Counted from the first letter of the stretch, positions 8,895-64,000 are shown. The stretch: 64,000 nucleotides of DNA from Thiotrichales bacterium (GCA_050329935.1 JBHJOI010000032.1:61350-125349), one strand, 5' to 3'. Translations and numbers: made by a program. Notes: generated from the letters alone by a model not told the origin.

Positions 8895-8906
8895 TGCTCT
8901 TGACGA

Positions 8907-11760: not shown

Positions 11761-11813
11761 TCGCGAGCCTTTTGAGTCAGTCTCAAGAACATCCCGAATC
11801 GAGGAACACGCAG

Positions 11814-11948
11814 ATGAAACGCACCTTTCAACCGAGCAACCTGCACCGCGCCCGCACCCATGGGTTCCGCGCACGTATGCGTACCGTTGGTGGCCGCAAG
11901 GTTATCAGTGCTCGTCGAGCCAAAGGGCGCGCCCGTCTTACCCCTTAA
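11814..11948 (+). CDS. rpmH: 50S ribosomal protein L34
   Basis: [52 protein letters not shown] upstream. Internal start within the longer listed ORF. Confidence 0.95.
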
Positions 11949-11985
11949 CGGTTGTATCGCTGAGACGGAAAATCGATTCATCGAT

Positions 11986-12375
11986 TTGAAATATCCGCGC
12001 TCGACGCGCTTAACCACAGCAGGCGCGTATCGTCGCGTATTCTCCGAACCCCCGTACGTTTCGAGAAACCGCGGCTGGACCATACTTAGCACGCCCGGCG
12101 AGCAGACTCACGCGCGTCTGGGAATAGTGGTAGCTAAGCGAAAAGTACGGCGCGCCGTGGACCGGAATCGACTCAAACGCCTTGTACGGGAGTCGTTCCG
12201 GGTGAACGTAGCTCAACTGCCGGATTGGGATATCGTTATCCTGATACAGACCGCCGCCAACACCATGAAAAATGATGATTTCGTTCAACGATTGTCGCGT
12301 GAATGGGCTAAGCTGAGTCGCGCCGCAAACCACGCCGAGGCGATCGTACCATCGCGAGCCTCACCTGAATCCTGA
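11986..12375 (+). CDS. rnpA: ribonuclease P protein component
   Basis: ...YPRSTRLTTAGAYRRVF...RLGIVVAKRKVRRAVDRNRLKRL... aligns to RnpA. Probable TTG start at 11986; the listed ORF starts further upstream inside rpmH. Confidence 0.8.
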   Translation: MKYPRSTRLTTAGAYRRVFSEPPYVSRNRGWTILSTPGEQTHARLGIVVAKRKVRRAVDRNRLKRLVRESFRVNVAQLPDWDIVILIQTAANTMKNDDFVQRLSREWAKLSRAANHAEAIVPSRASPES

Positions 12376-12393
12376 ACACAGGCAGTAGTCAGT

Positions 12394-28249: not shown

Positions 28250-30082
28250 ATGTGTGGAATAGTTGGCGGTGTCGCCCAAAGGGATGTCTATCCGATACTG
28301 CTCGAAGGGCTGCGGCGACTTGAGTATCGCGGCTACGATTCGTCGGGGCTCGCGGTTGTGCCACAGAGCGGTACGCTCACGCGTTATCGCCGACTGGGTA
28401 AGGTCGCCGAACTCGAGGCGGCGCTGAAGGCCGATCCGCTGCCCGGGGGACTCGGCATTGCTCATACTCGATGGGCAACCCACGGCGTGCCATCGGAGCG
28501 CAATGCACACCCGCATATCTGCGATCGCACAATCGCCGTGGTCCATAACGGCATCATCGAAAACCATGAGTTTCTGCGTGAGGTTCAGCGAGATCGCGGT
28601 TTCCGTTTCACATCGGAGACCGATACCGAGGTCGTTGCACATCAGGTCATGCACTACGTACGCCAAACCGGCGACCTGTTGAGCGCAGTGCAACTCGCGG
28701 TCAAGGACTTTCGAGGCGCCTATGCATTGGGCGTGGTTTCGCAGGAACATCCCGACACGCTGATTGCCGCGCGGGAAGGCAGTCCACTGGTGATTGGTCT
28801 CGGTATCGGCGAGAACTTTATCGCCTCGGACGTCCAGGCATTGCTGCCCGTCACGCATCGCTTCATTTACCTGGAAAATGGCGATATCGCGCGCATCACT
28901 CGACACGCGGTCGAGGTGTTCGACCGCGACATGCAGCCCGTTCGCCGTGAAGTCAAAACCAGTACCTTGAATGCTGGTGCGACCGATCGTGCGGGTTACA
29001 AGCATTTCATGCTGAAGGAGATCCATGAGCAGCCCGAGGCGATCCGCGCGACCGCCGAAGGCCGGATATCTGGCGACGATGTGATGGAGCAGGTCTTCGG
29101 CGTCAAGAGCAACGAGTTGTTCGATCGGGTCAAGAATGTCCAGATTGTTGCCTGCGGTACCAGCTACCATGCCGGTTTAGTTGGCAAATATTGGATGGAG
29201 GCCCTCGCCGAGGTTCCCTGTCAAGTCGAAGTCGCCAGCGAGTTTCGATATCGTAAGACCTTGGTGCCCGCCGACACTCTGTTTGTCACGATTTCGCAAT
29301 CGGGGGAGACGGCTGACACCTTGGCTGCATTGATGCAGGCGCGCCAGCGCGGCTACCTCGGTACGCTCACCATCTGCAACGTGCCGGAAAGTTCCTTGGT
29401 TCGAGAATCGGATCTCAGTCTGATGACGCTTGCGGGACCGGAAATCGGCGTTGCGTCGACGAAGGCTTTCACTACGCAGCTCGTTGCGCTGTTGATCATG
29501 GTGCTCGCGATTGCCAAGCGAAAAGGTGTCGCACGCGAGACGATCGCGGACTCGGTAGCAGCGTTACAACAACTGCCGCGCTTTGTCGAAGCCGCGCTTG
29601 AAAGCGATGCCGTTATCGAGCGCTTGTGCGAACAATTCGTAGACAAGCAGCACGCGCTGTTCCTGGGGCGTGGAGTCGAGTTTCCGATCGCGATGGAAGG
29701 CGCCCTCAAGCTCAAGGAGATTTCATATATTCACGCCGAAGCTTATCCGGCAGGGGAACTTAAGCATGGTCCGCTCGCACTCGTCGATGAGAACATGCCG
29801 GTCGTGACGGTCGCACCGAACAACGAGCTGTTGGAAAAGTTGCGTTCCAATCTTGAGGAGGTTCGAGCGCGTGGCGGTCGTCTCTATGTATTCGCGCCGG
29901 CGCAATCGGGATTCGTGGACAGTGAAGGCGTAACTGTTGTACTGACGCCGCACGTGCCCAATATCATTGCGCCCATCGTAAACGTGGTGTTTTTGCAGCT
30001 TCTTGCGTACCACACCGCCGTGCTTAAGGGTACCGACGTCGATCAGCCACGCAACCTGGCAAAAAGCGTCACCGTAGAATAA
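28250..30082 (+). CDS. glmS: glutamine--fructose-6-phosphate aminotransferase
   Basis: MCGIVG... Ntn amidotransferase plus two SIS domains; 610 aa. Confidence 0.95.
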
Positions 30083-30285: not shown

Positions 30286-30645
30286 CTAGCGGGTCGAGCT
30301 CTTGTGCTCGAGGTATTGCACAATCCGAGTGATGCCTTGGGGCGTTTTGACAAGCTCTCGGGGTATAGCCTCGAGCCGTGGCTCAAGGTGATTGAACCAG
30401 TGTCGCGCGCTGCTGAGATCACCGTCAAAAACGCAGTCCAGCGCCCGATTCATGCGGATCAATAGAAGTCGGCAGGCGGTGTCGGTAATGGCGCCGCTTG
30501 CTGATTCCGCGCATCGTGAAGTGGATTGCGACGCCTGCAAGAGTACGATCAGTTCCATCGAGGGAATGCCGATACAGCAGGCTGCTCGAAACGAAGCCAC
30601 TGATAAAAGGGCATCGGGGTCGAGGTCAACGGTCATTGCTTCCAT
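30286..30645 (-). CDS. hypothetical protein (119 aa, soluble; no family recognised)
   Basis: GC3-biased ORF, the only plausible reading frame in the 0.85-kb glmS-distal spacer. Its stop TAG is the centre of a 20-bp perfect palindrome. Weak SD. Confidence 0.35.
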   Translation of the reverse strand: MEAMTVDLDPDALLSVASFRAACCIGIPSMELIVLLQASQSTSRCAESASGAITDTACRLLLIRMNRALDCVFDGDLSSARHWFNHLEPRLEAIPRELVKTPQGITRIVQYLEHKSSTR

Positions 30646-47414: not shown

Positions 47415-47531
47415 CGCAATAAGCGCTTAAGCCCAGCGCTTCCCGCTATCCTCCCTGAGCGGGATGGCCCGAATCCCCAAGTCGGGCCGCAAAATTACCC
47501 CGGCCGCCTTAGGCCGGGGACTTTTCTTCCG
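47415..47531 (+). ncRNA. candidate structured sRNA (about 117 nt) in the polA-engB gap (Spot42/ErsA syntenic position)
   Basis: Four consecutive hairpins: aagcgc/gcgctt (47421-47441), cccgct/agcggg (47442-47463), ggcccga/tcgggcc (47466-47488), and the terminator ccccggcc/ggccgggg plus T-tract (47498-47531). No convincing ORF. Confidence 0.45.
47498..47531 (+). terminator. rho-independent terminator (plus strand) overlapping the engB 3' end
   Basis: 8-bp GC stem, 6-nt loop, then ACTTTTCTTCC. The engB stop TAA lies in the loop, and the T-tract encodes the engB C-terminus EEKS on the opposite strand. Confidence 0.7.
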
Positions 47532-48126
47532 AATCCAGCCAGCCATTCAGTTTCGCGATCACCTCGTCCAGCCCGGCGCCATTGCTGGCGGAAAACACTT
47601 GCACAGTTGCGTTTAGTCTCATGTCCGCCAGCTTCCGCCGAACCTCGAGTAGTGTCGCCTGCTGTGCGCCGCGTCCCAGCTTGTCGGCTTTGTTCAGTAA
47701 GACATGCACGGGCAAGGCGCGCGCGTCGCACCAGGCGAGCATTTGCTGATCCAGCGCGGTGAGCGGGTGGCGCACGTCCATGATCAAAAGCAGGCCACGG
47801 AGTGATTCCCTGCGAGTGAGGTACTCTTCCATCAATCGTTCCCATTTCAGCCTGACTTCTTCTGGCACCTTGGCGAAGCCGTAGCCAGGCAGATCCACTA
47901 AGAACGCACCGGAGGGCAGCGAGAAATAATTGATTTGTTGCGTGCGGCCGGGCGTTTTGCTGACCCGTGCAAGTTGGCGCCGCTGGCAGAGGCGATTGAG
48001 GGTGCTCGATTTGCCGGAATTCGAGCGTCCGGCCACGGCGACCTCGGGTCCGGTGGCGGCGGGGAATTGGCGCGAATGCGCGCAACTCAAAACAAATGTG
48101 GCTGCGTTGTAGTTCTGCATGATCAA
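47509..48126 (-). CDS. engB: ribosome biogenesis GTP-binding protein EngB (YihA/YsxC)
   Basis: GRSNSGKSSTLN G1 motif; 205 aa; divergent from cytochrome c4 as in Pseudomonas. Confidence 0.9.
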   Translation of the reverse strand: MIMQNYNAATFVLSCAHSRQFPAATGPEVAVAGRSNSGKSSTLNRLCQRRQLARVSKTPGRTQQINYFSLPSGAFLVDLPGYGFAKVPEEVRLKWERLMEEYLTRRESLRGLLLIMDVRHPLTALDQQMLAWCDARALPVHVLLNKADKLGRGAQQATLLEVRRKLADMRLNATVQVFSASNGAGLDEVIAKLNGWLDSEEKSPA

Positions 48127-48243
48127 TTGTTACGGGTGATGGGTTCCGAGGCTTTTGCTGGTGAGAGGGGGTCTGTGATATAAACCCGCAGGTTTCGGCG
48201 CGGCGCGCGTGGTTTGGCAAGACCCTGAGGAGAGGTTGAATTT

Positions 48244-49857: not shown

Positions 49858-50637
49858 ATGGATAATCTTTACCGGCAACGGCTCAAGCTCCTCAGTTACA
49901 ACATCCAGGTTGGCATACCCACAAATAAGTATCGTCACTATCTTACGCATAGCTGGAAACACGTTTTGCCGTTTCCGCAGCGCCAGTCGAACCTCGACCG
50001 GATCGCGGACTTCATCACCGATTTCGATATCGTGGGGCTGCAGGAACTTGATGCCGGCAGCATCCGCAGCGAATTCGTTCATCAGCCTGAGTATCTTGCG
50101 CTAAAGGCTGGATTTCCTTATTGCTACCACCGAGTCAATCGCGACCTCGGGCTCTTGGCGCAGCACAGTTTGGCCATCATGAGTCGGATTGAGCCGATCG
50201 CGGTCGCTGAACATCGGCTACCGAGCACTATCCCGGGACGCGGTGCGCTGGAGGTCCATTTCGGCGACCCGATGGATCCGCTGGTCGTCGTGCTGGCTCA
50301 TCTTTCGCTGTCCGCGCGCGCTAGACGGCGGCAGCTGCAATACATTGCTCAGGTCATAAAGGGGCGACGGCAGGTTGCTTTGATGGGTGATTTTAATGCC
50401 GAGATCAGTAACACGGAGATGGTTGAGCTGTTCGAGACAACGGACTTGATCAGGCCAACTCAAATGTCTCGCACCTATCCGAGTTGGCGGCCACGTCTGG
50501 GCTTCGATCACATCTTCGTGACGCCGGACATTCGCGTGGCAGAGTCTGAGGCCTACGGCGTGCGCCACTCCGATCACTTACCCGTCGGCATGGAAGTCGG
50601 CGTTCCACTGGCGACATGTCTCACGACCGCCGCCTGA
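49858..50637 (+). CDS. endonuclease/exonuclease/phosphatase (EEP) family protein
   Basis: ...IVGLQELD..., ...GDFN..., C-terminal SDHLPV; 259 aa. Confidence 0.75.
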   Translation: MDNLYRQRLKLLSYNIQVGIPTNKYRHYLTHSWKHVLPFPQRQSNLDRIADFITDFDIVGLQELDAGSIRSEFVHQPEYLALKAGFPYCYHRVNRDLGLLAQHSLAIMSRIEPIAVAEHRLPSTIPGRGALEVHFGDPMDPLVVVLAHLSLSARARRRQLQYIAQVIKGRRQVALMGDFNAEISNTEMVELFETTDLIRPTQMSRTYPSWRPRLGFDHIFVTPDIRVAESEAYGVRHSDHLPVGMEVGVPLATCLTTAA

Positions 50638-51047: not shown

Positions 51048-52898
51048 TCAGAATTGCAGCGACGCGCCGACGCTAAGCGTTCGCCCCGCATTGCGGTAAC
51101 CAAATATCGTCTGGTAATCCTCGTCTAATAGATTGCCGAGCTTGATATGAGCACTGAACCGCGGGCTGAACGCCTGGCGCAACTGTAGGTTCGCGAGCAC
51201 GAAGCTTGACAGTGTCACGGGGATTGCCGGGAACGAGCCATAGTCCTGGTCCTTGCTCGTGCTGGTGTAGGTCGCGTCAAGATCCAGCTGGAGCGTGTTC
51301 CAACTTCGGCTTAGATTAAGACCTAGCACGCTTTCGGGGCGGCGCGGCAAGCGCTCGCCAGTGGTGCCATCCGCGGGATGGGAGTAGGTATAACGCAGCC
51401 CGGTAATCCACGCGCCCCATAAGCGTTCGAGCCCAAGTTCGACGCCGTCGATCTCGGCTTCCCCTATGTTTTGAACGCGCTGGATCAGGTCAGTGACTCG
51501 CGTGCGGTAGGCCTGAAGCTCGATATTGCCCCATTGGGCTTGCTGCCTGAGGCCAAGTTCGAGCGTTCGCGATTGTTCGGATTTGAGGTCGGGATTGCCG
51601 AAGCCCGGATAGTACAGGTCCAGGAAAGTGGGCGCCTTGAACGCCTCCCCGACGCGAGCTAAAAGTAGCGTCGTCGAACTCAGGCGCCAACCCAGCTCGA
51701 GATTTCCGCTCGTATGACGACCATATGCCTCATTGTCATCAAAGCGCAGGCTGGCCTGAACCTGACCATCGCCCGCGAAGGGCGTGCCACCGGTAACAAA
51801 GATCCCGGTATTATCGCGCGATCGACGCGCGAAGGCGGTCGAGTCGCCACCAAATGCGTCGCGATACTCGACGCGGTCGTTGCGTAGGTCGGCGCCGGTC
51901 ACCAGCACCGAGCCCGTCCCGGTCGTGTACCGCGCTTGCAGTCCGAGTTCGCTGACCTGGCTGTGACTCCGATAGGTCGCGGTCCCGTTCGCCTCGGTGT
52001 CGAGCTCGTCGCGGCTGCGTCCAACGCGGGCTTGAACCGACCAGAGAGAGGTCAGGGTTTGGTCCCAGGTCACCTGAGCCGAGTGTTCGACAAACTGGGT
52101 CCTGGAATCGGCGTCGGCTCCGAAAGTGTCGTCGAATTCGGAGCGCCCCTCGGCATGGAGCAACGACACGTTCAGCCGACTATCAGGCGTGAGCGTGTAC
52201 TGAAATCCCGCATTCACGGCATCATTGCGATAGCCATCGCGATCGGGCTCCACTCCCTCGAACGCATCGATCCCGGCGCTACGTAGCGTCGCGGCGCGGA
52301 TTGAATATTGACCCTCGCGGTTGCCCATGCGGTCGGTGAGGCCCGCGCTGAGCTGAACGGTCCTATTGGAGCCTGCCTCGACATTGCCATCTGCCAGATC
52401 CTCCCTGCCATCACCGGCGCGAGTGAAGATTTGTATCACGCCGCCAATCGCCTCTGACCCGTATACGCTTGAGCGCGGACCGCGCACGATCTCGACGCGT
52501 TCAATCACTGCCAGCGGCAGGTGTTCCCAGGAAATCGTTCCGGCGGTCGATGAGCCGAAACGCATCCCATCGACGAGCACCAATACATGATTCGAGTTCG
52601 TGCCGCGCATGAAGACCGAGGTTTGCTTGCCAACGCCGCCCGTGGTTGCGACGTGCAACCCCGGCAGGCCACGCAACAGTCCTGGCACATCAAGTGCCGT
52701 CGAACGCTCGATATCGTCGCGCGTCAGAACCAGGGCGGGGGCCAGGAGTTCCTCGAGGGGTTGGGCGATTCGGTTCGCGGTGACCTGAACCCGTGGTAGT
52801 GGTGTGGCCGCCGCAGCGACCGAGGGTAGCGAAATGAGTAGTGTTGCCGTGCCAAGCACGGACATGATTCGGGCGGGGCCCGGTAAGCGAGCGGACAT
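51048..52898 (-). CDS. btuB: TonB-dependent vitamin B12 outer-membrane receptor BtuB
   Basis: TonB box region PRVQVTANR, ...VLVLVDGMRF...VEIVRGPRSSVYGSEAIGGVIQI... aligns to E. coli BtuB; C-terminal ...SLQF. Start at ATG 52898 with SD GGAG; the longer ORF reads through the riboswitch. Confidence 0.85.
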   Translation of the reverse strand: MSARLPGPARIMSVLGTATLLISLPSVAAAATPLPRVQVTANRIAQPLEELLAPALVLTRDDIERSTALDVPGLLRGLPGLHVATTGGVGKQTSVFMRGTNSNHVLVLVDGMRFGSSTAGTISWEHLPLAVIERVEIVRGPRSSVYGSEAIGGVIQIFTRAGDGREDLADGNVEAGSNRTVQLSAGLTDRMGNREGQYSIRAATLRSAGIDAFEGVEPDRDGYRNDAVNAGFQYTLTPDSRLNVSLLHAEGRSEFDDTFGADADSRTQFVEHSAQVTWDQTLTSLWSVQARVGRSRDELDTEANGTATYRSHSQVSELGLQARYTTGTGSVLVTGADLRNDRVEYRDAFGGDSTAFARRSRDNTGIFVTGGTPFAGDGQVQASLRFDDNEAYGRHTSGNLELGWRLSSTTLLLARVGEAFKAPTFLDLYYPGFGNPDLKSEQSRTLELGLRQQAQWGNIELQAYRTRVTDLIQRVQNIGEAEIDGVELGLERLWGAWITGLRYTYSHPADGTTGERLPRRPESVLGLNLSRSWNTLQLDLDATYTSTSKDQDYGSFPAIPVTLSSFVLANLQLRQAFSPRFSAHIKLGNLLDEDYQTIFGYRNAGRTLSVGASLQF

Positions 52899-53160
52899 AG
52901 GTGTGACTCCGGTGGGTTGTGCCCACCGCACAACCTGGATCGTACAACGCCATCGGTCGTGCCGACGGCGGCCTGCCACAGGCCGGTCTCCGGACTCGCG
53001 AGTGAGTCTAGACTCCACTTCGGCGCCTTCCCATGCCTTGGGGCACAGTGGCGTAAGGCCGAAGTCAAACTCGCTTACCGTTGCGGGGGCAGTGCCGGGA
53101 TTGCGTACGAACGCGCACCGGCTTCCCGTTTAACCATAAACCGGACAATCCGGTACGGCA
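52899..53160 (-). promoter_or_regulatory. cobalamin (B12) riboswitch plus expression platform in the btuB leader
   Basis: Minus sense: ...GGTTAAACGGGAAGCCGGTG...AATCCCGGCACTGCCCCCGCAACGGTAAG...CGCCACTGTGCC (B12 box)...TGGGAAGGCGCC... Then alternative hairpins ggttgtgc/gcacaacc versus ggtggg/cccacc next to the SD GGAG. Confidence 0.8.
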
Positions 53161-53300
53161 CCTGCTGGCGATGCGCAGAGTAGCGGGATCGATGATTGTT
53201 GGTCAATGTCGATCGTCAAGGGCCGTCGAGAATCGCTTTGATGGGCGCTGAGCCGTGTCACCTGCGTGTCGCGGCAACAGTCAGTCGACTGACGTTTCGA

Positions 53301-54503
53301 TCAATCGACCAGGTAACGCGCGACGCGATAGCGCAACCCACGCTCAACGGGCTGGTTGATCAGCAGCGCAAACGGCGCCCAGTCTTTTCCCGACTCAACG
53401 TAGCCTGCGTAGCAGCTGACATTGGTCAGGGTGCCGGTTTTGGCCAGGATCGAGCGTTGGTTCGATGGCATCAGGTCGCGGTAGGGTTTGAAATATTGCA
53501 ATAAAGTGACGAGCTGACGGGCGGTGAATCGGTTACGGCGCGACAGGCCGGACCCTTCCACCATATCGAACTCTTCCCAATCAAAGATCGCGCGAATCCG
53601 TTCCTGGGCATAACGTTGAGACTTTTCCAGCGTTGCCGGTCCGCCATAGGTCTGTGCACCCAGCATCAAAAAAAGTTGATTCGCGATGAAATTATTGGAC
53701 GACTTCAACATGCCGCGAACGACTTCTTGCAGGTTATGGCTATTGAAATGGCGATACACACGTTTGCTACCCTTGGGAACCACACCGAGTTTGACCGGTT
53801 CGCCAACCGCGACGCCGATGCCGACCAATTTCGCGCGCATCAACTCGGCGAAATATTGCGGTGCGCGACGCGGATCGCCGAGGTTCAGTCGTTGCTCGCC
53901 GGGTTCGGCAAACGCTTGCGCAAGCTCGTGAACGATCGGCGTCAACGGCGTTTGTGGTTCGGCGCTACTTAGCCCCGTTTCAGGGTCGTTAATAAAATAA
54001 ACTGTGTTGAAATTGGCGGAAACAGCACCGACGGGTGCGTCATAGGGGCTCAGGCTCCTGTCGCCGCCATCGATCGAGATATTTTTCGAAAAGTAAGTGC
54101 CGTCGATTCCGATACCTGATACTCGCTTGACTCCCGCTTTCTTCAACCGTGTGGCGATTCGCGACAGTTCCTCGGAGATCAGGTAGGGATCCCCGTAGCC
54201 CTTGATCCAGAGAAACTTTTTCTTGTCGATGTAGAAATCGGTATGAAATCGAAAGTCCCGGCCCCAGTGTTCCAGCGCCAGGAGTGCGGTCATAATCTTG
54301 AGCGTCGACGCCGGTACCATGAATTCGTCCGGGCGTACCGAGATCTTTTCGTTGCCCAGGTGGTCGAGCACGAGAAGACTCGAGTGTTTGAGTCCCGTGA
54401 TACTCTCCAGCGGCGACGCGGGCGCCGCCCTGGGTGACTGAGGGCTTACCGCGAATAACATCGCGATCACGAGGACGAGATGCTTGAAGAAGCTTGTTCG
54501 CAT
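53301..54503 (-). CDS. dacB: D-alanyl-D-alanine carboxypeptidase/endopeptidase (PBP4 / DacB, S13 family)
   Basis: Signal peptide; SxxK active site (PASTLKIMTALLAL); ...KTGTL... KTG motif; 400 aa. Confidence 0.8.
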   Translation of the reverse strand: MRTSFFKHLVLVIAMLFAVSPQSPRAAPASPLESITGLKHSSLLVLDHLGNEKISVRPDEFMVPASTLKIMTALLALEHWGRDFRFHTDFYIDKKKFLWIKGYGDPYLISEELSRIATRLKKAGVKRVSGIGIDGTYFSKNISIDGGDRSLSPYDAPVGAVSANFNTVYFINDPETGLSSAEPQTPLTPIVHELAQAFAEPGEQRLNLGDPRRAPQYFAELMRAKLVGIGVAVGEPVKLGVVPKGSKRVYRHFNSHNLQEVVRGMLKSSNNFIANQLFLMLGAQTYGGPATLEKSQRYAQERIRAIFDWEEFDMVEGSGLSRRNRFTARQLVTLLQYFKPYRDLMPSNQRSILAKTGTLTNVSCYAGYVESGKDWAPFALLINQPVERGLRYRVARYLVD

Positions 54504-54744
54504 TGGGAGTTATTCGTTGTTTTCCGGCGTGAGCATCATGCCCGCGTTCTCAAACCAGAAGCATAGCCGGCTTGGCGCCCGATCGCTGTGAAGCGAATCA
54601 TAAGTCGGGCAGGGCGATTGGAAAATGGTCCATTTAACGCCCGCGTGAGCCGATCCGAAACCACTCTCCGCGGGCGCGGGCAACCCACCCCCGCACCGTC
54701 GCGCGTCACGCGCTCGCTCCGGGCGCTAATGGGGCGGCTGCTAA

Positions 54745-55728
54745 CTAGGCGATTGCCTGATAGTACAGATTCTGCGGATGATTGGCTTCGGCGAAAAAAT
54801 ACCAGCGCTCGGCCAGCAGGCCGACATACTGCACGACAAACGCGATCAGCGGCAGATAATGTATCCCGACTTCCGAGTAAGCCGCGATTAGTAGCGTCAC
54901 CGGCAACACGAAGGCCAGGACCATGAAGCCCCATTTGACGCCCTTGACGAACATCGGACGCTTGCCGTGAAAGAACTCGCGCGTGTTGAATGATCCGCTC
55001 ATAAACCCTTGAGACTTCTGTCGAATGCGCGGGTGGCGAACACCGATCGCGGTGCGCAGCGTGGACTTGGGGCGCAACCCGCGGTTGCGAATCAGTGACG
55101 TGACGCGTGCGATCATCGCGAGCACAGTGAGCACGATGGCCCAGCCGGTAAAGAATCCGGCAATTTCGTTGCCGGTTACGTCGGTGAGCGCGGCGGCCAG
55201 GGTGAAACCCGAGGCGCCGCCCAACAACAGATAGTTGATGAGGGTCAGCGCGCTATGCCACTCCTGGAGAAACCTCAGGCTGGCGTAAATCATCGCCGTA
55301 CAGAGGTAGAGTGCGAACACCGCAAGCATCGCGAGGACACCGACGATCAACGTCAGATCGACCGGTTTGCCGCCCGGTAGGGTAAATAGGGGCCGCTCGA
55401 GTTCAAGATAGTGCGAGGCGCCGAAAATGAAAATCAGAAACATCGCGATCGGCAACACAATAACCTCGCGCGAGAGCCATGATGTGCGCCATTGCGTCGC
55501 ACTCCGCCAGGCTCGCTCTGGGCGGCCGAGGTGGAAAAACGACGCGATCAGACCGGCGACGAGCAGTAGCAATGCCACCAGACTTCCGGGTCCATAGAAA
55601 TCCGGGCCGCTTTGGGTGGGCAATAGACCATCCCACGCGTAAATCTGTGCCGTGAATAACGCGAGGTACAACCCCTGGCCTGCGCCGATGAGGGTTGTAA
55701 GCAGGATCACTGAAAGAGCAGGATGCAT
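54745..55728 (-). CDS. soeC: NrfD/PsrC-type polytopic membrane anchor of a complex iron-sulfur molybdoenzyme; best fit sulfite dehydrogenase subunit SoeC
   Basis: 327 aa with about 8 TM helices; last gene of the three-gene operon. Confidence 0.6.
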   Translation of the reverse strand: MHPALSVILLTTLIGAGQGLYLALFTAQIYAWDGLLPTQSGPDFYGPGSLVALLLLVAGLIASFFHLGRPERAWRSATQWRTSWLSREVIVLPIAMFLIFIFGASHYLELERPLFTLPGGKPVDLTLIVGVLAMLAVFALYLCTAMIYASLRFLQEWHSALTLINYLLLGGASGFTLAAALTDVTGNEIAGFFTGWAIVLTVLAMIARVTSLIRNRGLRPKSTLRTAIGVRHPRIRQKSQGFMSGSFNTREFFHGKRPMFVKGVKWGFMVLAFVLPVTLLIAAYSEVGIHYLPLIAFVVQYVGLLAERWYFFAEANHPQNLYYQAIA

Positions 55729-55748
55729 GGTGTCTCCGAAGGAACGCT

Positions 55749-56477
55749 TTACCAGGCCACGTCGTCCAGCGTAGGTCTGTCGCTGACGCTCGATTTGCGC
55801 AGGTCTTCTTTCTTGAGGGGGTTATCGGCGCGTACGAGTTCGTCGGCGTGGATGCGGATCTGCGTTTTGCGGCGCGGCAAATAATGATTGGCAGGATTGG
55901 TGCCCCACTCCGGCATAAGCTGATAGCCGCCATTGTCGCGTATCGCGAGTGATACCGCGGAGTCTGGGTCATGGACATCACCGTACAAGCGCGCGCTGGT
56001 TGGGCACGCGAGCACGCAGGCCGGCTTGCGTTCACTCTCGGGCAGCGCCGTGTCGTACAGGCGGTCGACGCACAAGGTGCATTTTTTCATCACCTTTTGT
56101 TTTTCATCGAGTTCGCGTACGCCGTACGGGCAGGCCCAGGAGCAGTATTTGCAGCCGATGCATTTGTCGTAATCAACCAGCACGATACCGTCCTCCGGGC
56201 GCTTGTAGCTCGCGCCGGTCGGGCATACGGGGACGCAGGGCGGATCCTCGCAGTGGAGGCAGCTTTTCGGAAAGTGAACCGTTTCAGTCTTCGGAAACTC
56301 TCCGACTTCGAATGTTTGTACGCGGTTGAAAAACGTGCCGGTCGGATCGGCGGCGTAGGGATTGAAGTCGGTCATCGGTCCCGCGCTACCGGAGGTGTTC
56401 CATTCCTTGCAGCTGGTGACACAGGCATGGCAACCGACACACACATTCAAGTCGATGACTAACGCGAGCTGGGTCAT
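55749..56477 (-). CDS. soeB: four-cluster [4Fe-4S] ferredoxin subunit; best fit SoeB
   Basis: Four Cys clusters (CVGCHACVTSC, CLHCEDPPCVPVCP, CIGCKYCSWACP, CTLC...CVLACP); 242 aa. Confidence 0.6.
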   Translation of the reverse strand: MTQLALVIDLNVCVGCHACVTSCKEWNTSGSAGPMTDFNPYAADPTGTFFNRVQTFEVGEFPKTETVHFPKSCLHCEDPPCVPVCPTGASYKRPEDGIVLVDYDKCIGCKYCSWACPYGVRELDEKQKVMKKCTLCVDRLYDTALPESERKPACVLACPTSARLYGDVHDPDSAVSLAIRDNGGYQLMPEWGTNPANHYLPRRKTQIRIHADELVRADNPLKKEDLRKSSVSDRPTLDDVAW

Positions 56478-56483
56478 GGTGTT

Positions 56484-59384
56484 CTACGCTCCCGATTTCT
56501 TACCGAACTTGCCGGCGATGTAGGCTTGCCACTTCCCGCGCCGCCGCTCCATCCCCGGAAAGGATGGCAGCGGATTGAACTGAGGCCAGCTTTGCTTGGG
56601 TTCGTCCGCCTCGGCTTTGTAAACGCGCACGCGTACGTCGTACCAGCCCGCTTGACCCGTCACCGGATCGGAGTTCGAGATCGTCATGCCTTCGACGCCC
56701 GTGGGCAGCTCCTCGGTAATGATGTGGTTCAACAGAAATCCCTTTTGCGACTCATTGGCTTTCGGATGTAATGCCCATGCCCCGGACGCCTTGCCGATCG
56801 CATTCCAGGTCCACACCGTGCCGGGTTCGACCGCTTCGCTGAACATGCACATGCAGCGGACTTTGCCCCAGGGCGATTCAACCCAGACCCAGTCGCTTTC
56901 CTTGAAGCCATTGGCCTTGCCGAGCAGCGGATTCAGGTAAAGGTAGTTATGGGTATGGATCTGCCGCAGCCATGCGTTCTGCGAATCCCACGAGTGATAC
57001 ATCGCCATTGGGCGCTGGGTGATCGCATTGAGCGGGTACTTCTGCGTATCGATGCGCTGCGACTCGAGTGGCTCGTGATAAAAGGGCAGCGGATCGAAAT
57101 AGGTGCGCACACGCTCGCGCAGGCGTTGCGGCGGCTGGCGTCCATCCGATTTGCCCTCGGCCGCGAGTCGAAACTTCTGCAACACCTCGGAGTAGATGTG
57201 GATGTTGATGGGCTCGGCATAGCGAGTCATGCCGTGGTCCTGAGCCCATTGCAGGTAGCCCTGGTTCCAGTTGCGCATGTATTGGAACGATCGCGGCAAC
57301 TCGTAATGGAATACGCAGTTGTTATTGGCATACATTTCCCACTGGCGCGGATTGGGCTCCCCGCGCAGGAATTTCTCGCCGCCCTTGCCGCGCCACCCGG
57401 CCAGAAAACCAATTCCGGATCCTGGCGCACTCTCGTAGTTGATAATGAAGTCGCGATAATCCCGAAACTTTCGCGAGCCGTCGGCTTGGGTAAACGCCGG
57501 CAGTTGCAGTCGCGTACCGAGTTCGATCATTACCTCCTGAAACGGTTTGCACTCACCCTTCGGCGGGACGACAGGGATTCGCACCGAATCGACCGGCCCG
57601 TCGTACTCTGAGATCGGGCGATCGAGCATCGACATGACATCGTGGCGTTCGAGATAGGTCGTGTCGGGCAACACCAGATCGGCGAACGCGACCGTCTCCG
57701 ACTGGAAGGTGTCGCATACCACGAGAAACGGAATCCGGTATTCGCCGGCCTCATCCTTGTCGGTCAACATCTCGCGCACGCGCGCGGTGTTCATCGAAGA
57801 GTTCCAGGCCATATTGGCCATGAACAACAGCAAGGTGTCGATCCGATAGGGATCGCCGCGCCATGCGTTGGTGATCGCATTGTGCATCAGGCCGTGCACC
57901 GACAGCGGGTATTCCCACGAAAACGCCTTGTCGATCCGCAACGGTTCGCCGTCCTCACTGACGAACAGGTCATCCGGATCCGCCGGCCAGCCCAGTGGCA
58001 TCCCATTCAAAATCTCACCGGGGACTACGTCCGCTTCGCTCCTTGGCGGCTTCGGGCAGGGCGGAATCGGGCGCGGAAACGGTGCCTTGTGGCGAAAACC
58101 GCCCGGCCGATCGATCGTGCCAAGCAGGGTCATCAGGATGCCGAGTGCCCGGATCGTGTGAAAGCCATTGGAGTGTGCGGCCAACCCGCGCATCGCGTGA
58201 AACGCGACCGGATTGCCGATCACCGAGTTGTGTTCCTTGCCCCAGGCATCGGTCCACGCAATCGGCAGCTCGATCTGCTGATCTCTTGCGGTCACGCCCA
58301 TTTCGTGCGCCAAGCGTCGAATCGTTTCGGCCGGAATTCCGGTGATTCCCGCCGCCCACTCGGGCGTGTATTGCTCAACACGCTCCTTCAGCAGTTGGAA
58401 CGACGGTTTGACCGGTGTGCCGTCATCCCAACGGAATTCGCCGAGCAGATAGGGGTCGGCACCCTCGGTGTGGGTCGAAATGGGACGGTTCAGCTCGCGG
58501 TCCCACCACAACTTGTTCTGCGGGTCGAAGCAACCCTCCTCGGGGGGGATCTCGAAGCGCAAGAACATGCCGAACTCGCTACTCTTGGGGTCGAGATTCA
58601 CCAACTCGGGGGCGTTGGTGTAACGCACCAGGTAGTCGCGATCGTAAAGGCCCTGCTTGATGATCTCGTGAATCATCGCCAGCAACAGCGCGCCGTCGGT
58701 GCCCGGCTTTATCGGCACCCATTCATCGGCGATCGCCGAATAGCCGGTTCGCACCGGGTTGATCGAGATGAACCGTCCGCCCTGGCGTTTGAATTTTGAG
58801 ATTTGCACCTTGAGCGGATTCGAGTGATGGTCCTCGGCGGTGCCGAACATCAATAACAACTTGGCGCGTTCGAGATCCGGGCCGCCGAATTCCCAGAACG
58901 AACCGCCGATCGTGTAGATGAGACCCGCGGCCATGTTGACCGAGCAGAATCCGCCATGCGCCGCATAGTTCGGCGTCCCGAACTGGCGCGCGAATAGCCC
59001 GGTCAACGCCTGCATCTGATCGCGGCCCGTGAAAAGCGCGAAGCGCTTCGGATCCGTTGCGCGAATCTTGCCGAGTCGTTCCGCCAACAGCGAAAACGCC
59101 TCGTCCCAGCTCACGGCCTCAAATTCGCCACTGCCACGCTCCGCGCCGGGTTTACGCCGTAACGGCCGCGTCAGGCGTGCCGGCGAATACTGCTTCATGA
59201 TCCCGGAAGCGCCCTTCGCGCAAATAACGCCTTGGTTCAGAGGATGATTCGGGTTCCCCTCGATATAGCGGACCTCGCCGTTCTCCAGCGTTACCCTGAT
59301 GCCGCAACGGCACGCGCACATATAACATGTGGTGGTTTTGACTTCGCGGCTCGGGGCTTGAACGGATTCCGGCTGGGCGTTCAT
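56484..59384 (-). CDS. soeA: molybdopterin (bis-MGD) oxidoreductase catalytic subunit without a Tat signal; best fit sulfite dehydrogenase SoeA
   Basis: 966 aa; N-terminal FeS motif CYMCACRCG...C; no twin-arginine leader. Subunit sizes of about 108, 27 and 36 kDa and the A-B-C order match the cytoplasm-facing SoeABC. Confidence 0.6.
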   Translation of the reverse strand: MNAQPESVQAPSREVKTTTCYMCACRCGIRVTLENGEVRYIEGNPNHPLNQGVICAKGASGIMKQYSPARLTRPLRRKPGAERGSGEFEAVSWDEAFSLLAERLGKIRATDPKRFALFTGRDQMQALTGLFARQFGTPNYAAHGGFCSVNMAAGLIYTIGGSFWEFGGPDLERAKLLLMFGTAEDHHSNPLKVQISKFKRQGGRFISINPVRTGYSAIADEWVPIKPGTDGALLLAMIHEIIKQGLYDRDYLVRYTNAPELVNLDPKSSEFGMFLRFEIPPEEGCFDPQNKLWWDRELNRPISTHTEGADPYLLGEFRWDDGTPVKPSFQLLKERVEQYTPEWAAGITGIPAETIRRLAHEMGVTARDQQIELPIAWTDAWGKEHNSVIGNPVAFHAMRGLAAHSNGFHTIRALGILMTLLGTIDRPGGFRHKAPFPRPIPPCPKPPRSEADVVPGEILNGMPLGWPADPDDLFVSEDGEPLRIDKAFSWEYPLSVHGLMHNAITNAWRGDPYRIDTLLLFMANMAWNSSMNTARVREMLTDKDEAGEYRIPFLVVCDTFQSETVAFADLVLPDTTYLERHDVMSMLDRPISEYDGPVDSVRIPVVPPKGECKPFQEVMIELGTRLQLPAFTQADGSRKFRDYRDFIINYESAPGSGIGFLAGWRGKGGEKFLRGEPNPRQWEMYANNNCVFHYELPRSFQYMRNWNQGYLQWAQDHGMTRYAEPINIHIYSEVLQKFRLAAEGKSDGRQPPQRLRERVRTYFDPLPFYHEPLESQRIDTQKYPLNAITQRPMAMYHSWDSQNAWLRQIHTHNYLYLNPLLGKANGFKESDWVWVESPWGKVRCMCMFSEAVEPGTVWTWNAIGKASGAWALHPKANESQKGFLLNHIITEELPTGVEGMTISNSDPVTGQAGWYDVRVRVYKAEADEPKQSWPQFNPLPSFPGMERRRGKWQAYIAGKFGKKSGA

Positions 59385-59543
59385 GAGGCGGATTAGTACA
59401 TTAGTAAGTAGCGATAAAGCCTAAGGTACTCCCGTTGCGGTGTCGGGCGGAAATACTTTCTGCTTATTCAAGGATAACTAGAATTTATCCAGATAATTTT
59501 TGTTTATGAGAAAGTGGTTGATCCGATTGGGCGTTGGGCAATC

Positions 59544-59834
59544 CTAGCGCGGATCGACGATGGTCGCTGGGAGTCGCGCCGGCGAATCGATCCGCAGCGT
59601 TTTGTCGCGTGCCGTCGCGCCGCTCACCAGTTCGATCTGCCGCAGGGGCACACCAAACAGCTTGCTGAACAGTTTCGTGATATGGGCGTTGGCCTTGCCG
59701 TTGACGGGAGGCGCCGTGATCCTTAGCCTGATGCGTCCACTCAGAACCTCGCCGAACCCATCGTTTGTGGCCCTGGGGTGGACGCGAATATTGAGGATCA
59801 GGCAGTTGCCATCCCAACGATACCAGTCACCCAC
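59544..59834 (-). CDS. yggU: DUF167 (YggU) family protein
   Basis: ...ITAPPVNGKANAHITKLFSKLFGV...; a start at the internal GTG gives about 96 aa, like YggU; the listed ORF is 15 codons longer. Confidence 0.7.
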   Translation of the reverse strand: MGDWYRWDGNCLILNIRVHPRATNDGFGEVLSGRIRLRITAPPVNGKANAHITKLFSKLFGVPLRQIELVSGATARDKTLRIDSPARLPATIVDPR

Positions 59835-59925
59835 GCCATACGCCCCGCGCGAGGGTGGATTCCACGCAGGGTGAAACACGCCGGCACTGTAACGATTGTT
59901 TGCCTGGCATCGTGAATCCGCGCGA

Positions 59926-60483
59926 TCAGCCGAAGGCGCGAATCACGATCAATAGTATATTCAAGATCAGGATCGCGACCAGCGGCGTGATGTCGATCAT
60001 GCCGATGCGCGGCACGATGCGCGAGAGCGGATGCAGCAACGGCGTATTGATGCTATGCAGAATCGACGCTAGCGGGTTTTGGCGGTCGTAGAACGCGGTG
60101 GGATTGATCCAGGTCAACACCGCCTCGATGATGATCGAGAACATGTAAACGTAGATCAGCATCGAGAGCAGTTGGACGATAGTTGTCCCCGCCAACCACA
60201 TCAGTTCCGGCGTTTTACCCTGGACCACTAGCAATAGCGTGAGCTGGAGCAGCTTCAGGGCGACCATGATGACGACCGCCGCCGTATCGATCCGCCCCAC
60301 CGGCGGCACGACGCGTCGCAGCGGTTTCAGCAGGGGGTTGGTCGCAGTCACGATGAACTGCGAGAACGGATTGTAGAAATCCGCCCGCGATAAACCGAGC
60401 AACATGCGGATCATGAACAGCGCGATAAAAAGCGTGAAAAGCGTGTCGATCAGAAAAAACGCGATTTCGGTCAGAACGTTCAT
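59926..60483 (-). CDS. yggT: YggT family membrane protein
   Basis: 185 aa, two YggT repeats, 4 TM. Confidence 0.85.
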   Translation of the reverse strand: MNVLTEIAFFLIDTLFTLFIALFMIRMLLGLSRADFYNPFSQFIVTATNPLLKPLRRVVPPVGRIDTAAVVIMVALKLLQLTLLLVVQGKTPELMWLAGTTIVQLLSMLIYVYMFSIIIEAVLTWINPTAFYDRQNPLASILHSINTPLLHPLSRIVPRIGMIDITPLVAILILNILLIVIRAFG

Positions 60484-62173: not shown

Positions 62174-63208
62174 ATGGATATTACGCAGCTTCTCGCGTTT
62201 GGTGTCAAAAACGGCGCATCGGATTTGCATCTCTCCGCGGGCTTACCGCCGATGGTGCGGATCGACGGTGATATACGACGCCTCAATGCCGCGCCGTTGT
62301 CACATAAAGACGTCCACGCGATGGTCTACGACATCATGTCCGACAAGCAACGGAAGGACTACGAGGAATTTCTCGAAACGGATTTCTCGTTCGAGGTCAA
62401 GGAGCTGGCGCGTTTCCGGGTCAATGCCTTTACCCACGATCGCGGCGCCGGCGCGGTATTCCGGACCATTCCCTCGCGCGTGCTGTCGCTTGAGGACCTG
62501 GACGCGCCGGAAGTCTTCAAGAAGATCTCCGGCCTGCCACGCGGCCTGGTGTTGGTGACCGGCCCCACCGGTTCGGGCAAATCGACCACCTTGGCGGCGA
62601 TGATCAACCACAAGAACGACAGCGAATTCGGCCATATACTGACCATCGAGGATCCGATCGAGTTCGTCCACGAATCTAAAAAGTGCTTGGTCAATCAGCG
62701 CGAGGTGCACCGCGATACGCACAGTTTCAATGCCGCGCTACGTTCGGCGCTACGCGAGGATCCTGACACGATTCTAGTGGGCGAGATGCGCGATCTGGAG
62801 ACCATCCGGCTTGCCCTGACCGCGGCCGAGACGGGCCACCTAGTGTTCGGAACGCTGCATACGACCTCGGCGGCTAAAACGATCGACCGGATCGTCGACG
62901 TGTTTCCCGCCGAGGAAAAGGACATGGTCCGAGCCATGCTCTCGGAGTCGTTGCGCGCGGTCATCTCGCAGACCCTGCTCAAGAAAGTCGGCGGCGGACG
63001 CGTCGCAGCGCACGAAATCATGATCGGCACGCCTGCGATCCGCAACCTGATCCGCGAAGGAAAGATTGCGCAAATGTATTCCGCGATCCAGACTGGGCAA
63101 CGCGAGGGCATGATCACGCTGGATCAAGGTCTTAAAAATCTGTTGGCTAAAGGCATCGTGACGCGCGAAGAGGCTCGGCTTCGAGCCGTCTCGCCCGATT
63201 CGCTGTAG
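62174..63208 (+). CDS. pilT: type IV pilus retraction ATPase PilT
   Basis: MDITQLLAFGVKNGASDLHLSAG..., Walker A GPTGSGKST; 344 aa, as in P. aeruginosa PilT. Confidence 0.95.
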   Translation: MDITQLLAFGVKNGASDLHLSAGLPPMVRIDGDIRRLNAAPLSHKDVHAMVYDIMSDKQRKDYEEFLETDFSFEVKELARFRVNAFTHDRGAGAVFRTIPSRVLSLEDLDAPEVFKKISGLPRGLVLVTGPTGSGKSTTLAAMINHKNDSEFGHILTIEDPIEFVHESKKCLVNQREVHRDTHSFNAALRSALREDPDTILVGEMRDLETIRLALTAAETGHLVFGTLHTTSAAKTIDRIVDVFPAEEKDMVRAMLSESLRAVISQTLLKKVGGGRVAAHEIMIGTPAIRNLIREGKIAQMYSAIQTGQREGMITLDQGLKNLLAKGIVTREEARLRAVSPDSL

Positions 63209-63250: not shown

Positions 63251-64000
63251 ATGGATCGCGCCAAGGCCATTGAATTCGTACATGAGTTGCTACGCACGAT
63301 GGTGGAGCAACAGGGCTCGGACTTGTTCATCACGGCCGGAGCGCCGCCGAGCATGAAGGTGAACGGCCTCCTGCAGCCGATCACGCAGCACAAACTCACG
63401 CCGACCCACACGCAAATGTTGGCGCGTGCATTGATGAACGACCGCCAGTTGGGCGAGTTCGAAAAGCACCAGGAAACCGGATTCAGCATAGCGGTGACCG
63501 GCGTTTCGCGGTTCAGGGTCAGTGCGTTCATGCAGCGGGGTTTTTATGGGATGGTGTTGCGGCGCATCAACGATCAGATTCCTACCTTCGAAGAGTTGAA
63601 TCTACCCTCGTCGCTGCGGGAAGTCGCGATGATGCGGCGTGGACTCGTGCTCGTGGTTGGGGCGACCGGATCCGGCAAATCAAGCACGCTGGCGGCGCTG
63701 TTGGGTTTTCGCAATCGCACCAGTCGCGGACATATCATTACGATCGAGGATCCGGTCGAGTTCGTGCACGAACACGATCAGTGCATCGTGACTCAGCGCG
63801 AAATCGGTATCGATACGGAATCCTATGAAGCGGCGCTCAAGAATGCGTTGCGTCAGGCGCCCGACGTGATTGTCCTTGGCGAAATTCGCGACCGTGCCGC
63901 AATGGATTATGCCATCACCTTCGCCGAGACCGGCCACCTTTGCATGTCCACGGTTCATGCCAACAGCGCCAATCAAGCCATGGAGCGGGTGCTGAATTTC
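63251..64000 (+). CDS. pilU: type IV pilus ATPase PilU; 3' end runs off the window
   Basis: MDRAKAIEFVHELLRTMVEQQGSDLFIT..., GATGSGKSST. Confidence 0.9.
   Translation, partial: MDRAKAIEFVHELLRTMVEQQGSDLFITAGAPPSMKVNGLLQPITQHKLTPTHTQMLARALMNDRQLGEFEKHQETGFSIAVTGVSRFRVSAFMQRGFYGMVLRRINDQIPTFEELNLPSSLREVAMMRRGLVLVVGATGSGKSSTLAALLGFRNRTSRGHIITIEDPVEFVHEHDQCIVTQREIGIDTESYEAALKNALRQAPDVIVLGEIRDRAAMDYAITFAETGHLCMSTVHANSANQAMERVLNF

What the first reader, a model, noticed from the sequence alone, without database searches (positions are those of the whole stretch)
54745..59384. Cytoplasm-facing three-subunit molybdoenzyme consistent with sulfite dehydrogenase SoeABC
The operon has a 966-aa bis-MGD catalytic subunit with an N-terminal CxxC(xC)xC...C FeS motif but no twin-arginine signal, a 242-aa four-cluster ferredoxin, and a 327-aa NrfD/PsrC membrane anchor. 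Polysulfide, thiosulfate, tetrathionate and DMSO reductases of this complex iron-sulfur molybdoenzyme type carry Tat leaders. Absence of a Tat leader together with this A-B-C order and these sizes fits SoeABC, which oxidises sulfite in the cytoplasm of sulfur oxidisers. This suggests the host is a sulfur-oxidising gammaproteobacterium. The operon sits immediately next to the yggSTU-proC/pilTU housekeeping cluster.
Basis: inference. Interest (0 to 1): 0.5.

Follow-up and report, generated by a model that had tools for sequence, protein, structure and literature searches.

The report
Ordinary SoeABC cytoplasmic sulfite dehydrogenase operon

The parts
56484..59384 (-). soeA: catalytic bis-MGD molybdopterin subunit, 966 aa, 109.4 kDa
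   Evidence: ORF. Pfam PF04879, PF00384 and PF01568. 100% identical to NCBI 'sulfite dehydrogenase subunit SoeA [Thiotrichales bacterium]'. 78% identity and 0 gaps over 951 aa to A. vinosum SoeA P0246. Mass.
59220..59327 (-). Codons for SoeA residues 20-55: the FS0 [4Fe-4S] binding motif C20-x2-C23-x3-C27-x27-C55, plus an extra Cys25
   Evidence: Cysteine positions. In the 214-sequence family alignment, C55 is invariant and C20/23/25/27 are Cys in 211 sequences, with the other 3 gapped at those columns. Pfam Molybdop_Fe4S4 covers residues 15-66.
58944..58946 (-). Codon for SoeA Cys147, the probable Mo-coordinating residue
   Evidence: Aligns with Cys173 of T. thermophilus PsrA (2vpw_A) in the HMMER alignment. 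Invariant in 214 family sequences. That PsrA Cys173 is the Mo ligand is from my own knowledge of Jormakka et al. 2008.
59421..59423 (-). In-frame TAG stop 13 codons upstream of the soeA ATG, which excludes any N-terminal extension
   Evidence: None of the 12 intervening codons is ATG, GTG or TTG.
55749..56477 (-). soeB: four-cluster ferredoxin subunit, 242 aa, 26.9 kDa, no signal peptide
   Evidence: 16 Cys in groups 13/16/19/23, 73/76/81/85, 106/109/112/116 and 133/136/154/158. Pfam Fer4_11. 78% identical to A. vinosum SoeB with all 16 Cys conserved.
54745..55728 (-). soeC: haem-less 8-TM quinone-interacting membrane anchor, 327 aa, 36.2 kDa
55465..55533 (-). SoeC residues 66-88 (HLGRPERAWRSATQWRTSWLSRE): the loop after TM2, carrying the invariant His66 and five Arg; the predicted quinone-site loop on the cytoplasmic face
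   Evidence: Aligns in register with E. coli DmsC 58-88, including His65. H66, P70, E71, R72, W74, R75 and W80-E88 are invariant in the 30-sequence alignment A1. Charge count. Quinone-site His65 is listed for A. aeolicus SoeC in PMC8076601, Table 2.
54931..55089 (-). SoeC residues 214-266: long loop between TM6 and TM7 with 14 K+R, predicted cytoplasmic
   Evidence: It is the low-confidence, largely disordered part of the model.
59385..59543 (-). 159-nt spacer between yggU and soeA, the presumed promoter region (no element identified)
   Evidence: Sequence. The consensus scan found nothing above chance.

Best explanation
The locus is an orthologous copy of soeABC, which encodes the membrane-bound sulfite:quinone oxidoreductase (sulfite dehydrogenase) of the complex iron-sulfur molybdoenzyme family.

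Inferred mechanism: sulfite made in the cytoplasm is oxidised to sulfate at the Mo-bis-MGD centre of SoeA, with Cys147 as the likely Mo ligand. Electrons pass to the N-terminal [4Fe-4S] cluster FS0 (Cys20/23/27/55), then along the four [4Fe-4S] clusters of SoeB. [quoted passage not shown]

Unlike Psr, Phs, Ttr, Dms and Arr enzymes, SoeA has no Tat leader, so SoeAB stay in the cytoplasm. SoeC is accordingly inserted N-in/C-in, the reverse of DmsC, which places the quinone site at the cytoplasmic face.

Shown here: orthology of all three subunits to the A. vinosum enzyme, conservation of the cofactor ligands, the impossibility of a Tat leader, and the charge-bias topology.

Inferred, not shown: the catalytic activity, the quinone as acceptor, and the physiological source of the sulfite.
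For: Orthology and family placement:
- Direct BLASTP against A. vinosum DSM 180 (CP001896.1): SoeA 78% identity, 88% positives, 0 gaps over 951 aa; SoeB 78%; SoeC 59%. The sizes also match: 967/240/325 aa against 966/242/327 aa.
- NCBI already names the identical protein SoeA, and JGI KO names at 62-81% identity are SoeA and SoeC.
- The A-B-C order is kept in 79 of 80 (B) and 74 of 80 (C) related loci; the tblastn coordinates suggest most of the remainder are cut by contig ends.
- All rival named families score far below their NCBIfam cut-offs.

No export signal:
- No Tat motif and no possible upstream start.
- 0 of 79 homologous loci have a Tat-like motif. The median maximum extension before the first Cys is 22 aa.
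- The E. coli DmsA control shows SRRGLV.

Cofactor ligands:
- The FS0 cysteines and Cys147 are conserved throughout the 214-sequence alignment.
- Cys147 aligns with PsrA Cys173.

SoeC orientation and fold:
- K+R count is 21 on the N-terminal side against 2 on the other. All 107 family members predicted with 8 TM helices show the same bias, with medians of 19 and 2.
- The E. coli DmsC control shows the opposite bias, 4 against 8.
- The TM2 and His66 register with DmsC is preserved.
- The fold matches NrfD-like ActC and PsrC.

Literature:
- PMC6335251, PMC6397845 and PMC6620896: SoeA lacks the Tat signal.
Against: - No enzymology or expression data exist for this uncultured organism.
- NCBIfam release 20 has no SoeA/B/C model, so membership rests on pairwise identity and not on a curated cut-off.
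- No sulfite-generating pathway (dsr, hdr) and no sox or apr genes were found in the window or within 10 kb either side.
- Soe-like paralogs of unknown substrate exist in Thioalkalivibrio (PMC6620896).
- The orientation of SoeC is a positive-inside prediction, not a measurement.
- No promoter or terminator was identified.
Confidence: 0.93

Rival explanations
1. It is a Soe-like paralog (the 'cluster 2' type seen in Thioalkalivibrio) that has the same architecture and no Tat leader but acts on another substrate, for example arsenite or thioarsenate.
For: PMC6620896 and PMC6382920 describe a second SoeABC-like cluster, also without a Tat signal, about 55% similar to cluster 1. It is induced by As(III) and its substrate is unproven.
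Against: - Cluster 1 is defined as the group around A. vinosum SoeA. The window protein is 78% identical to that protein with no gaps, far closer than the ~55% that separates the two clusters.
- It is 76% identical to the SoeA-encoding locus of Thioalkalivibrio sp. ALJ3 (L036), a strain reported to carry a single soeABC copy (PMC6382920).
Confidence: 0.03
2. It is a periplasm-facing reductase of the Psr/Phs/Ttr/Dms type that was mis-assigned because the true start codon was missed.
For: - The best NCBIfam hit is PhsA, and the best PDB hit is T. thermophilus PsrA.
- Pfam assigns subunit C to DmsC.
Against: - Scores are far below the family cut-offs: PhsA 235 against 694, DmsA 177 against 778, TtrA 128 against 1750.
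- An in-frame stop 13 codons upstream, with no alternative start, rules out a hidden Tat leader.
- 0 of 79 homologs have a Tat motif.
- The SoeC charge bias is the reverse of DmsC.
Confidence: 0.01
3. The enzyme is a true SoeABC, but in this host it detoxifies or recycles sulfite from organosulfonate or other heterotrophic sulfur metabolism, and is not the last step of lithotrophic sulfur oxidation. This rival concerns the physiological role, not the identity of the enzyme.
For: - SoeABC was first implicated in the heterotroph Ruegeria pomeroyi (PMC6335251).
- Homologs at 68-77% identity occur in loci labelled Paraburkholderia, Bordetella, Hydrogenophaga, Rhodoferax and Magnetospirillum.
- No sox, dsr, hdr or apr genes lie in the window or within 10 kb either side.
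Against: - The MAG is labelled Thiotrichales.
- The closest named homologs are from sulfur oxidisers: Sulfurivermis, Thiolapillus, Sedimenticola and Chromatiaceae.
- In A. vinosum the soe operon also sits away from dsr and sox, among housekeeping genes, so the lack of linkage says little.
Confidence: 0.15

Closest known systems
Allochromatium vinosum DSM 180 SoeABC (Alvin_2491-2489; ADC63403.1, ADC63402.1, ADC63401.1), identified genetically as the major cytoplasmic sulfite-oxidising enzyme (Dahl et al. 2013, cited in PMC6397845 and PMC6382920)
   Same: - Same A-B-C order and nearly the same sizes: 967/240/325 aa against 966/242/327 aa.
- 78%, 78% and 59% identity.
- No Tat leader.
- All FS0 cysteines, the Mo-ligand cysteine and the SoeB cysteines are conserved.
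- Subunit C is also PF04976.
- Both operons are flanked by unrelated housekeeping genes.
   Different: The genomic neighbours differ: yggU and PBP4 here, metA-like and sensor kinase genes in A. vinosum. The host here is an uncultured Thiotrichales MAG, not a purple sulfur bacterium.
Aquifex aeolicus SoeABC (SoeC = aq_1231), described as a quinone-reducing molybdenum sulfite dehydrogenase (Boughanemi et al. 2020, cited in PMC8076601)
   Same: - Same three-subunit composition: Mo-bisPGD plus one [4Fe-4S], four [4Fe-4S], and an 8-TM NrfD-like anchor.
- A quinone-site His65 is listed for A. aeolicus SoeC. The window SoeC has an invariant His66 in the same HLG motif (PMC8076601 Table 2).
   Different: The phylum differs (Aquificae).
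Thermus thermophilus polysulfide reductase PsrABC (PDB 2VPW-2VPZ), the closest solved structure
   Same: - Same CISM architecture.
- SoeA residues 12-256 align to PsrA 34-283 (E 3e-45 for the whole sequence), with Cys147 on the Mo-ligand Cys173.
   Different: - PsrAB are exported by Tat and face the periplasm; SoeA has no leader.
- SoeA is about 200 aa longer.
- The direction of catalysis differs: quinol oxidation with polysulfide reduction, against sulfite oxidation with quinone reduction.
- The predicted orientation of SoeC is inverted.
Escherichia coli DMSO reductase DmsABC
   Same: - Subunit C belongs to the same Pfam family, DmsC PF04976.
- The segment from the end of TM2 through the HLGxPxRA loop aligns in register.
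- Both have 8 TM helices.
   Different: - DmsA carries a Tat signal (SRRGLV); SoeA does not.
- The DmsA/YnfE model score is 177 bits against a cut-off of 778.
- The K+R bias across the membrane is opposite: DmsC 4 against 8, SoeC 21 against 2.
Thioalkalivibrio 'Soe-like' cluster 2 (PMC6620896, PMC6382920)
   Same: Three-subunit operon with no Tat signal.
   Different: Cluster 2 is about 55% similar to cluster 1 and its substrate is unknown. The window protein is 78% identical to A. vinosum SoeA, the cluster 1 reference.

Membership tests
SoeABC sulfite:quinone oxidoreductase | Catalytic subunit orthologous to the experimentally characterised SoeA (A. vinosum Alvin_2491) | tested here: met
   78% identity, 88% positives and 0 gaps over 951 of 966 aa to P0246 from CP001896.1.
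SoeABC sulfite:quinone oxidoreductase | Bis-MGD molybdopterin domains plus an N-terminal [4Fe-4S] (FS0) cysteine motif in subunit A | tested here: met
   PF04879, PF00384 and PF01568. C20/C23/C27/C55 and Cys147 are conserved throughout the 214-sequence alignment.
SoeABC sulfite:quinone oxidoreductase | No Tat (twin-arginine) leader on subunit A | tested here: met
   No RR in residues 1-75. An in-frame TAG lies 13 codons upstream with no alternative start. 0 of 79 homologous loci have a Tat-like motif. The DmsA positive control shows SRRGLV.
SoeABC sulfite:quinone oxidoreductase | Subunit B with four [4Fe-4S] clusters, orthologous to SoeB | tested here: met
   16 Cys in four groups. 78% identical to A. 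vinosum SoeB with all 16 conserved.
SoeABC sulfite:quinone oxidoreductase | Subunit C is a haem-less 8-TM NrfD-like anchor orthologous to SoeC | tested here: met
   [not shown]
SoeABC sulfite:quinone oxidoreductase | Contiguous soeA-soeB-soeC operon | tested here: met
   Gaps of 6 and 20 nt. The same order is found in 79 of 80 (B) and 74 of 80 (C) related loci.
SoeABC sulfite:quinone oxidoreductase | SoeAB on the cytoplasmic (N) side, with SoeC inverted relative to other NrfD-like subunits | tested here: met
   Prediction level only. K+R is 21 on the N-terminal side against 2 on the other. All 107 family members predicted with 8 TM helices share the bias. The DmsC control is opposite, and the helix register is preserved. 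Experimental topology cannot be tested with these tools.
SoeABC sulfite:quinone oxidoreductase | Sulfite-dependent quinone reduction activity | not testable with these tools
   Requires biochemistry on membranes or purified complex.
SoeABC sulfite:quinone oxidoreductase | [quoted passage not shown] | tested here: inconclusive
   None found in the window or within 10 kb either side. The rest of the MAG could not be read. A. vinosum also lacks linkage.
Thiosulfate/polysulfide reductase (PhsABC/PsrABC) | PhsA equivalog score and a Tat leader | tested here: not met
   NF012032 scores 234.8 bits against a cut-off of 694, and only the N-terminal third aligns well. No Tat leader.
DMSO/selenate reductase (DmsABC/YnfEFGH) | DmsA/YnfE subfamily score and a Tat leader | tested here: not met
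   TIGR02166 scores 176.9 bits against 777.7, and NF011566 scores 124.2 against 1600. No Tat leader. Only subunit C shares the Pfam family.
Tetrathionate reductase (TtrABC) | TtrA and TtrB equivalog scores | tested here: not met
   TtrA scores 128 bits against 1750, and TtrB 140.6 against 416.
Soe-like cluster 2 (Thioalkalivibrio) | Groups apart from A. vinosum SoeA, at about 55% similarity to cluster 1 | tested here: not met
   78% identity to A. vinosum SoeA. No cluster 2 sequence was available for a direct tree.

The most novel reading that the evidence does not exclude
SoeC may be a natural case of whole-subunit topology inversion within the NrfD-like family. The helix register and the quinone-site histidine are kept relative to DmsC, but the family-wide charge bias is reversed (median 19 against 2 K+R). 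If the ion half-channels proposed for NrfD-like subunits work in SoeC, the inverted anchor would couple sulfite:quinone electron transfer to ion movement in the opposite direction from Psr- or ACIII-type complexes. The inversion itself was already hypothesised in the literature (PMC8076601). The energetic consequence is untested.
Probability: 0.12. Interest if true: 0.45.

Novelty: already known. Interest (0 to 1): 0.08.

Why it matters
It matters little beyond correct annotation. [quoted passage not shown] The one mildly useful by-product is clean sequence-level support for the hypothesis that SoeC sits in the membrane upside down relative to DmsC: the charge bias holds in all 107 family members predicted with 8 TM helices, and the helix register with DmsC is preserved. 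No SoeABC structure turned up in the PDB sequence search (best hit was T. thermophilus PsrA).

Tried and rejected
- The genome-contig scan with SoeA returned 80 loci but not A. vinosum. A third homolog search seeded with the Thiorhodococcus SoeA recovered it.
- A look-up of PilT from the mechanical GTG start found nothing. The ATG start at 62174 worked.
- The consensus promoter and terminator scan of 54300-59950 gave nothing above shuffled expectation, and no hit lay in the yggU-soeA spacer.
- Looking for sox, dsr, hdr or apr genes in the window and in 10 kb beyond each end found only housekeeping genes.
- Flanking-gene synteny was tested across the 80 loci. None share yggU, yggT, proC, yggS, pilT, PBP4 or btuB next to soe. 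Only the two closest MAG relatives do.
- One family member (P0027) matched a loose RR regex, but the motif (GRREVK) lies 7 residues before the first Cys and has no hydrophobic region, so it is not a Tat signal.
- A Pfam query of ORF 47495-48220 (-) found nothing because it is the wrong frame. The real gene there is engB/yihA at about 47509-48120.
- The DnaA-box count in the window is not above chance.
Full report
**Observation.** They are separated by 6 and 20 nt. Pfam finds Molybdop_Fe4S4, Molybdopterin and Molydop_binding in A, 4Fe-4S dicluster domains in B, and the DmsC anchor family PF04976 in C. A begins MNAQPESVQAPSREVKTTTCYMCACRCGIR, so the first cluster cysteine is residue 20. The motif is C20-x2-C23-x-C25-x-C27...C55. 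B has 16 cysteines in four groups.

**No Tat leader.** There is no RR in the first 75 residues of A. Translating upstream in frame gives a TAG at 59421-59423, 13 codons before the ATG, and none of the 12 codons between is ATG, GTG or TTG. I examined 79 homologous loci fetched from one-genome-per-species contigs. None has a Tat-like motif before the first cluster cysteine, and the furthest possible start leaves a median of only 22 residues there. Among 213 annotated family proteins, 17-35 residues precede the first Cys. The only loose RR match (GRREVK, 7 residues before the Cys) is not a signal. As a positive control, E. coli DmsA shows its SRRGLV Tat motif.

**Identity.** No NCBIfam equivalog is reached. 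PhsA scores 235 bits against a cut-off of 694, DmsA/YnfE 177 against 778, and TtrA 128 against 1750. B scores below the NrfC, TtrB and DsrO cut-offs, and C has no NCBIfam hit. The best solved structure is T. thermophilus PsrA, mostly over the N-terminal 250 residues.
- The large protein collection holds a 100% identical protein named 'sulfite dehydrogenase subunit SoeA [Thiotrichales bacterium]'. Proteins about 80% identical are named SoeA in Sulfurivermis fontis, Thiorhodococcus minor and Thiolapillus.
- A further search seeded with the Thiorhodococcus protein recovered SoeA of Allochromatium vinosum, on the 3,526,903-bp replicon CP001896.1. This is the organism in which SoeABC was genetically identified as the major cytoplasmic sulfite-oxidising enzyme (Dahl et al. 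2013, cited in PMC6397845, PMC6382920 and PMC6335251).
- Direct comparison gives 78% identity, 88% positives and no gaps over 951 residues for A. B is 78% identical with all 16 cysteines conserved. C is 59% identical over the full length.
- The A. vinosum subunits are 967, 240 and 325 aa, and its C subunit is also PF04976.
- The A-B-C order is kept in 79 of 80 (B) and 74 of 80 (C) related loci.

This settles membership.

**Mechanistic anatomy.** In a 214-sequence family alignment, Cys55 and Cys147 are invariant. Cys20, 23, 25 and 27 are Cys in 211 sequences, and the other three are gapped at those columns. Cys147 aligns with Cys173 of PsrA, the Mo ligand in that structure according to my own knowledge of Jormakka et al. 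2008. The composition matches the one tabulated for SoeABC in PMC8076601: SoeA with one Mo-bisPGD and one [4Fe-4S], SoeB with four [4Fe-4S], and SoeC without cofactors. The inferred path is therefore sulfite to Mo to FS0 to the four SoeB clusters to quinone in SoeC.

**Orientation of SoeC.**
- Hydropathy gives eight helices, and the AlphaFold model agrees (pTM 0.82).
- K+R residues number 21 in the loops on the N-terminal side, including 5 in loop 66-88 and 14 in loop 214-266. The other side has 2.
- Of 120 homologs, 107 were predicted with 8 TM helices. All 107 show the same bias, with medians of 19 and 2.
- The E. coli DmsC control shows the opposite bias, 4 against 8. This fits its known periplasmic termini (own knowledge, Weiner et al. 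1993).
- The inversion is not a helix-count artefact. SoeC 59-89 (GLIASFFHLGRPERAW...) aligns in register with DmsC 58-88 (GFIASMLHLGSPMRAF...), so His66 falls on DmsC His65. His66 and most of that loop are invariant in the family. PMC8076601 lists His65 in the predicted quinone site of A. aeolicus SoeC and states that SoeC 'would be expected' to be inverted.

The data here support that expectation at the sequence level. The quinone-site loop is predicted to lie at the cytoplasmic face, next to SoeB.

**Context.** The window comes from contig CAZTIU010000001.1 (189,229 bp) of MAG GCA_964613875.1. The same sequence is present in a stromatolite metagenome assembly, ERZ909567 / SRR3310977.
- Downstream lie a PBP4-type D-Ala-D-Ala carboxypeptidase and a B12 receptor behind a cobalamin riboswitch.
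- The rest of the window is the origin-proximal housekeeping block: gyrB-recF-dnaN-dnaA, rnpA-yidC-mnmE, then genes consistent with mnmG-rsmG-parAB-atp-glmUS (assigned from sizes and order, not verified), then glnA and a two-component pair, polA, a cytochrome c and dsbA.
- No sox, dsr, hdr or apr gene occurs in the window or in 10 kb beyond either end.
- The position between yggU and PBP4 is shared by the two closest MAG relatives, at 94% and 88% SoeA identity. None of the 80 more distant loci shares it.
- In A. vinosum the operon also sits among unrelated genes, so lack of linkage says nothing either way about sulfur lithotrophy.

**Rivals.**
- The only rival worth naming at the enzyme level is the 'Soe-like cluster 2' of Thioalkalivibrio. 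It also lacks a Tat signal, is about 55% similar to cluster 1, and has an unproven substrate (PMC6382920, PMC6620896). At 78% identity to the cluster 1 reference, the window protein is not of that type.
- A periplasmic Psr/Phs/Ttr/Dms-type reductase is excluded by the family scores, the upstream stop codon and the SoeC charge bias.
- At the physiological level, SoeABC could serve heterotrophic sulfite disposal and not lithotrophy. It was first implicated in Ruegeria pomeroyi (PMC6335251), and homologs occur in loci labelled Paraburkholderia, Bordetella and Magnetospirillum. The MAG label (Thiotrichales) and the nearest named relatives favour a sulfur oxidiser, but the whole genome must be scanned to decide.

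**Verdict.** Both the observation and the interpretation are correct, and the gene is already named SoeA in the public record. The finding is an ordinary member of a known, widespread system. Novelty: already known. Interest: low.

Noticed in passing
window 52964-53180 (-), upstream of btuB (about 51048-52898, -): A cobalamin riboswitch (RF00174, 109 bits) sits directly upstream of a TonB-dependent vitamin B12 receptor. The mechanical ORF start (GTG 53018) overlaps the riboswitch, so it is too long; the called gene is 616 aa.
   Followed up: partly
window 5373-15434 and onward to about 30082: The window holds the chromosomal origin-region gene set: gyrB, recF, dnaN and dnaA on the minus strand, and rnpA, yidC and mnmE on the plus strand. 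The following ORFs fit mnmG, rsmG, parAB, the atp operon and glmUS by size and order, but were not verified. Two perfect DnaA boxes lie in the dnaA-dnaN spacer at 10189 and 10246, but the box count over the window is not above chance. GC falls to 0.50 at 4-12 kb, and the cumulative GC skew minimum is near 18-20 kb. soeABC therefore lies about 45 kb from dnaA.
   Followed up: partly
window 47440-47528 (+): A borderline Rfam hit to the Burkholderia anti-hemB sRNA (RF02837, 51.2 bits against a gathering score of 49.5) lies between the convergent 3' ends of polA and engB/yihA. It may be only a terminator-like structure.
   Followed up: no
window 30286-30645 (-), just downstream of the presumed glmS (28250-30082, +): A small ORF has a sub-threshold match to the Xre/MbcA/ParS antitoxin C-terminal domain (24.4 bits against 24.5). 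It sits where Tn7-like elements and other cargo commonly insert downstream of glmS.
   Followed up: no
L088 and L089 (closest MAG relatives) compared with L001-L080: The placement of soeABC between yggU and the PBP4 gene is conserved in the two nearest relatives (94% and 88% SoeA identity) but in none of 80 more distant genomes. The operon's location is therefore lineage-specific and not a conserved synteny.
   Followed up: yes
window 62174-63208 (+), 63251-64000 (+), and beyond the window (L081 12360-13664): Three tandem PilT/PilU-type T2SSE ATPase genes (344, 388 and 434 aa) are followed further on by response-regulator, CheW and PilJ-type genes that look like a pilGHIJ chemosensory cluster.
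   Followed up: no
window 2356-3132 (-) and 49858-50637 (+): Two separate Exo_endo_phos (endonuclease/exonuclease/phosphatase) family genes lie in the same 64 kb.
   Followed up: no
[not shown]
   Followed up: no
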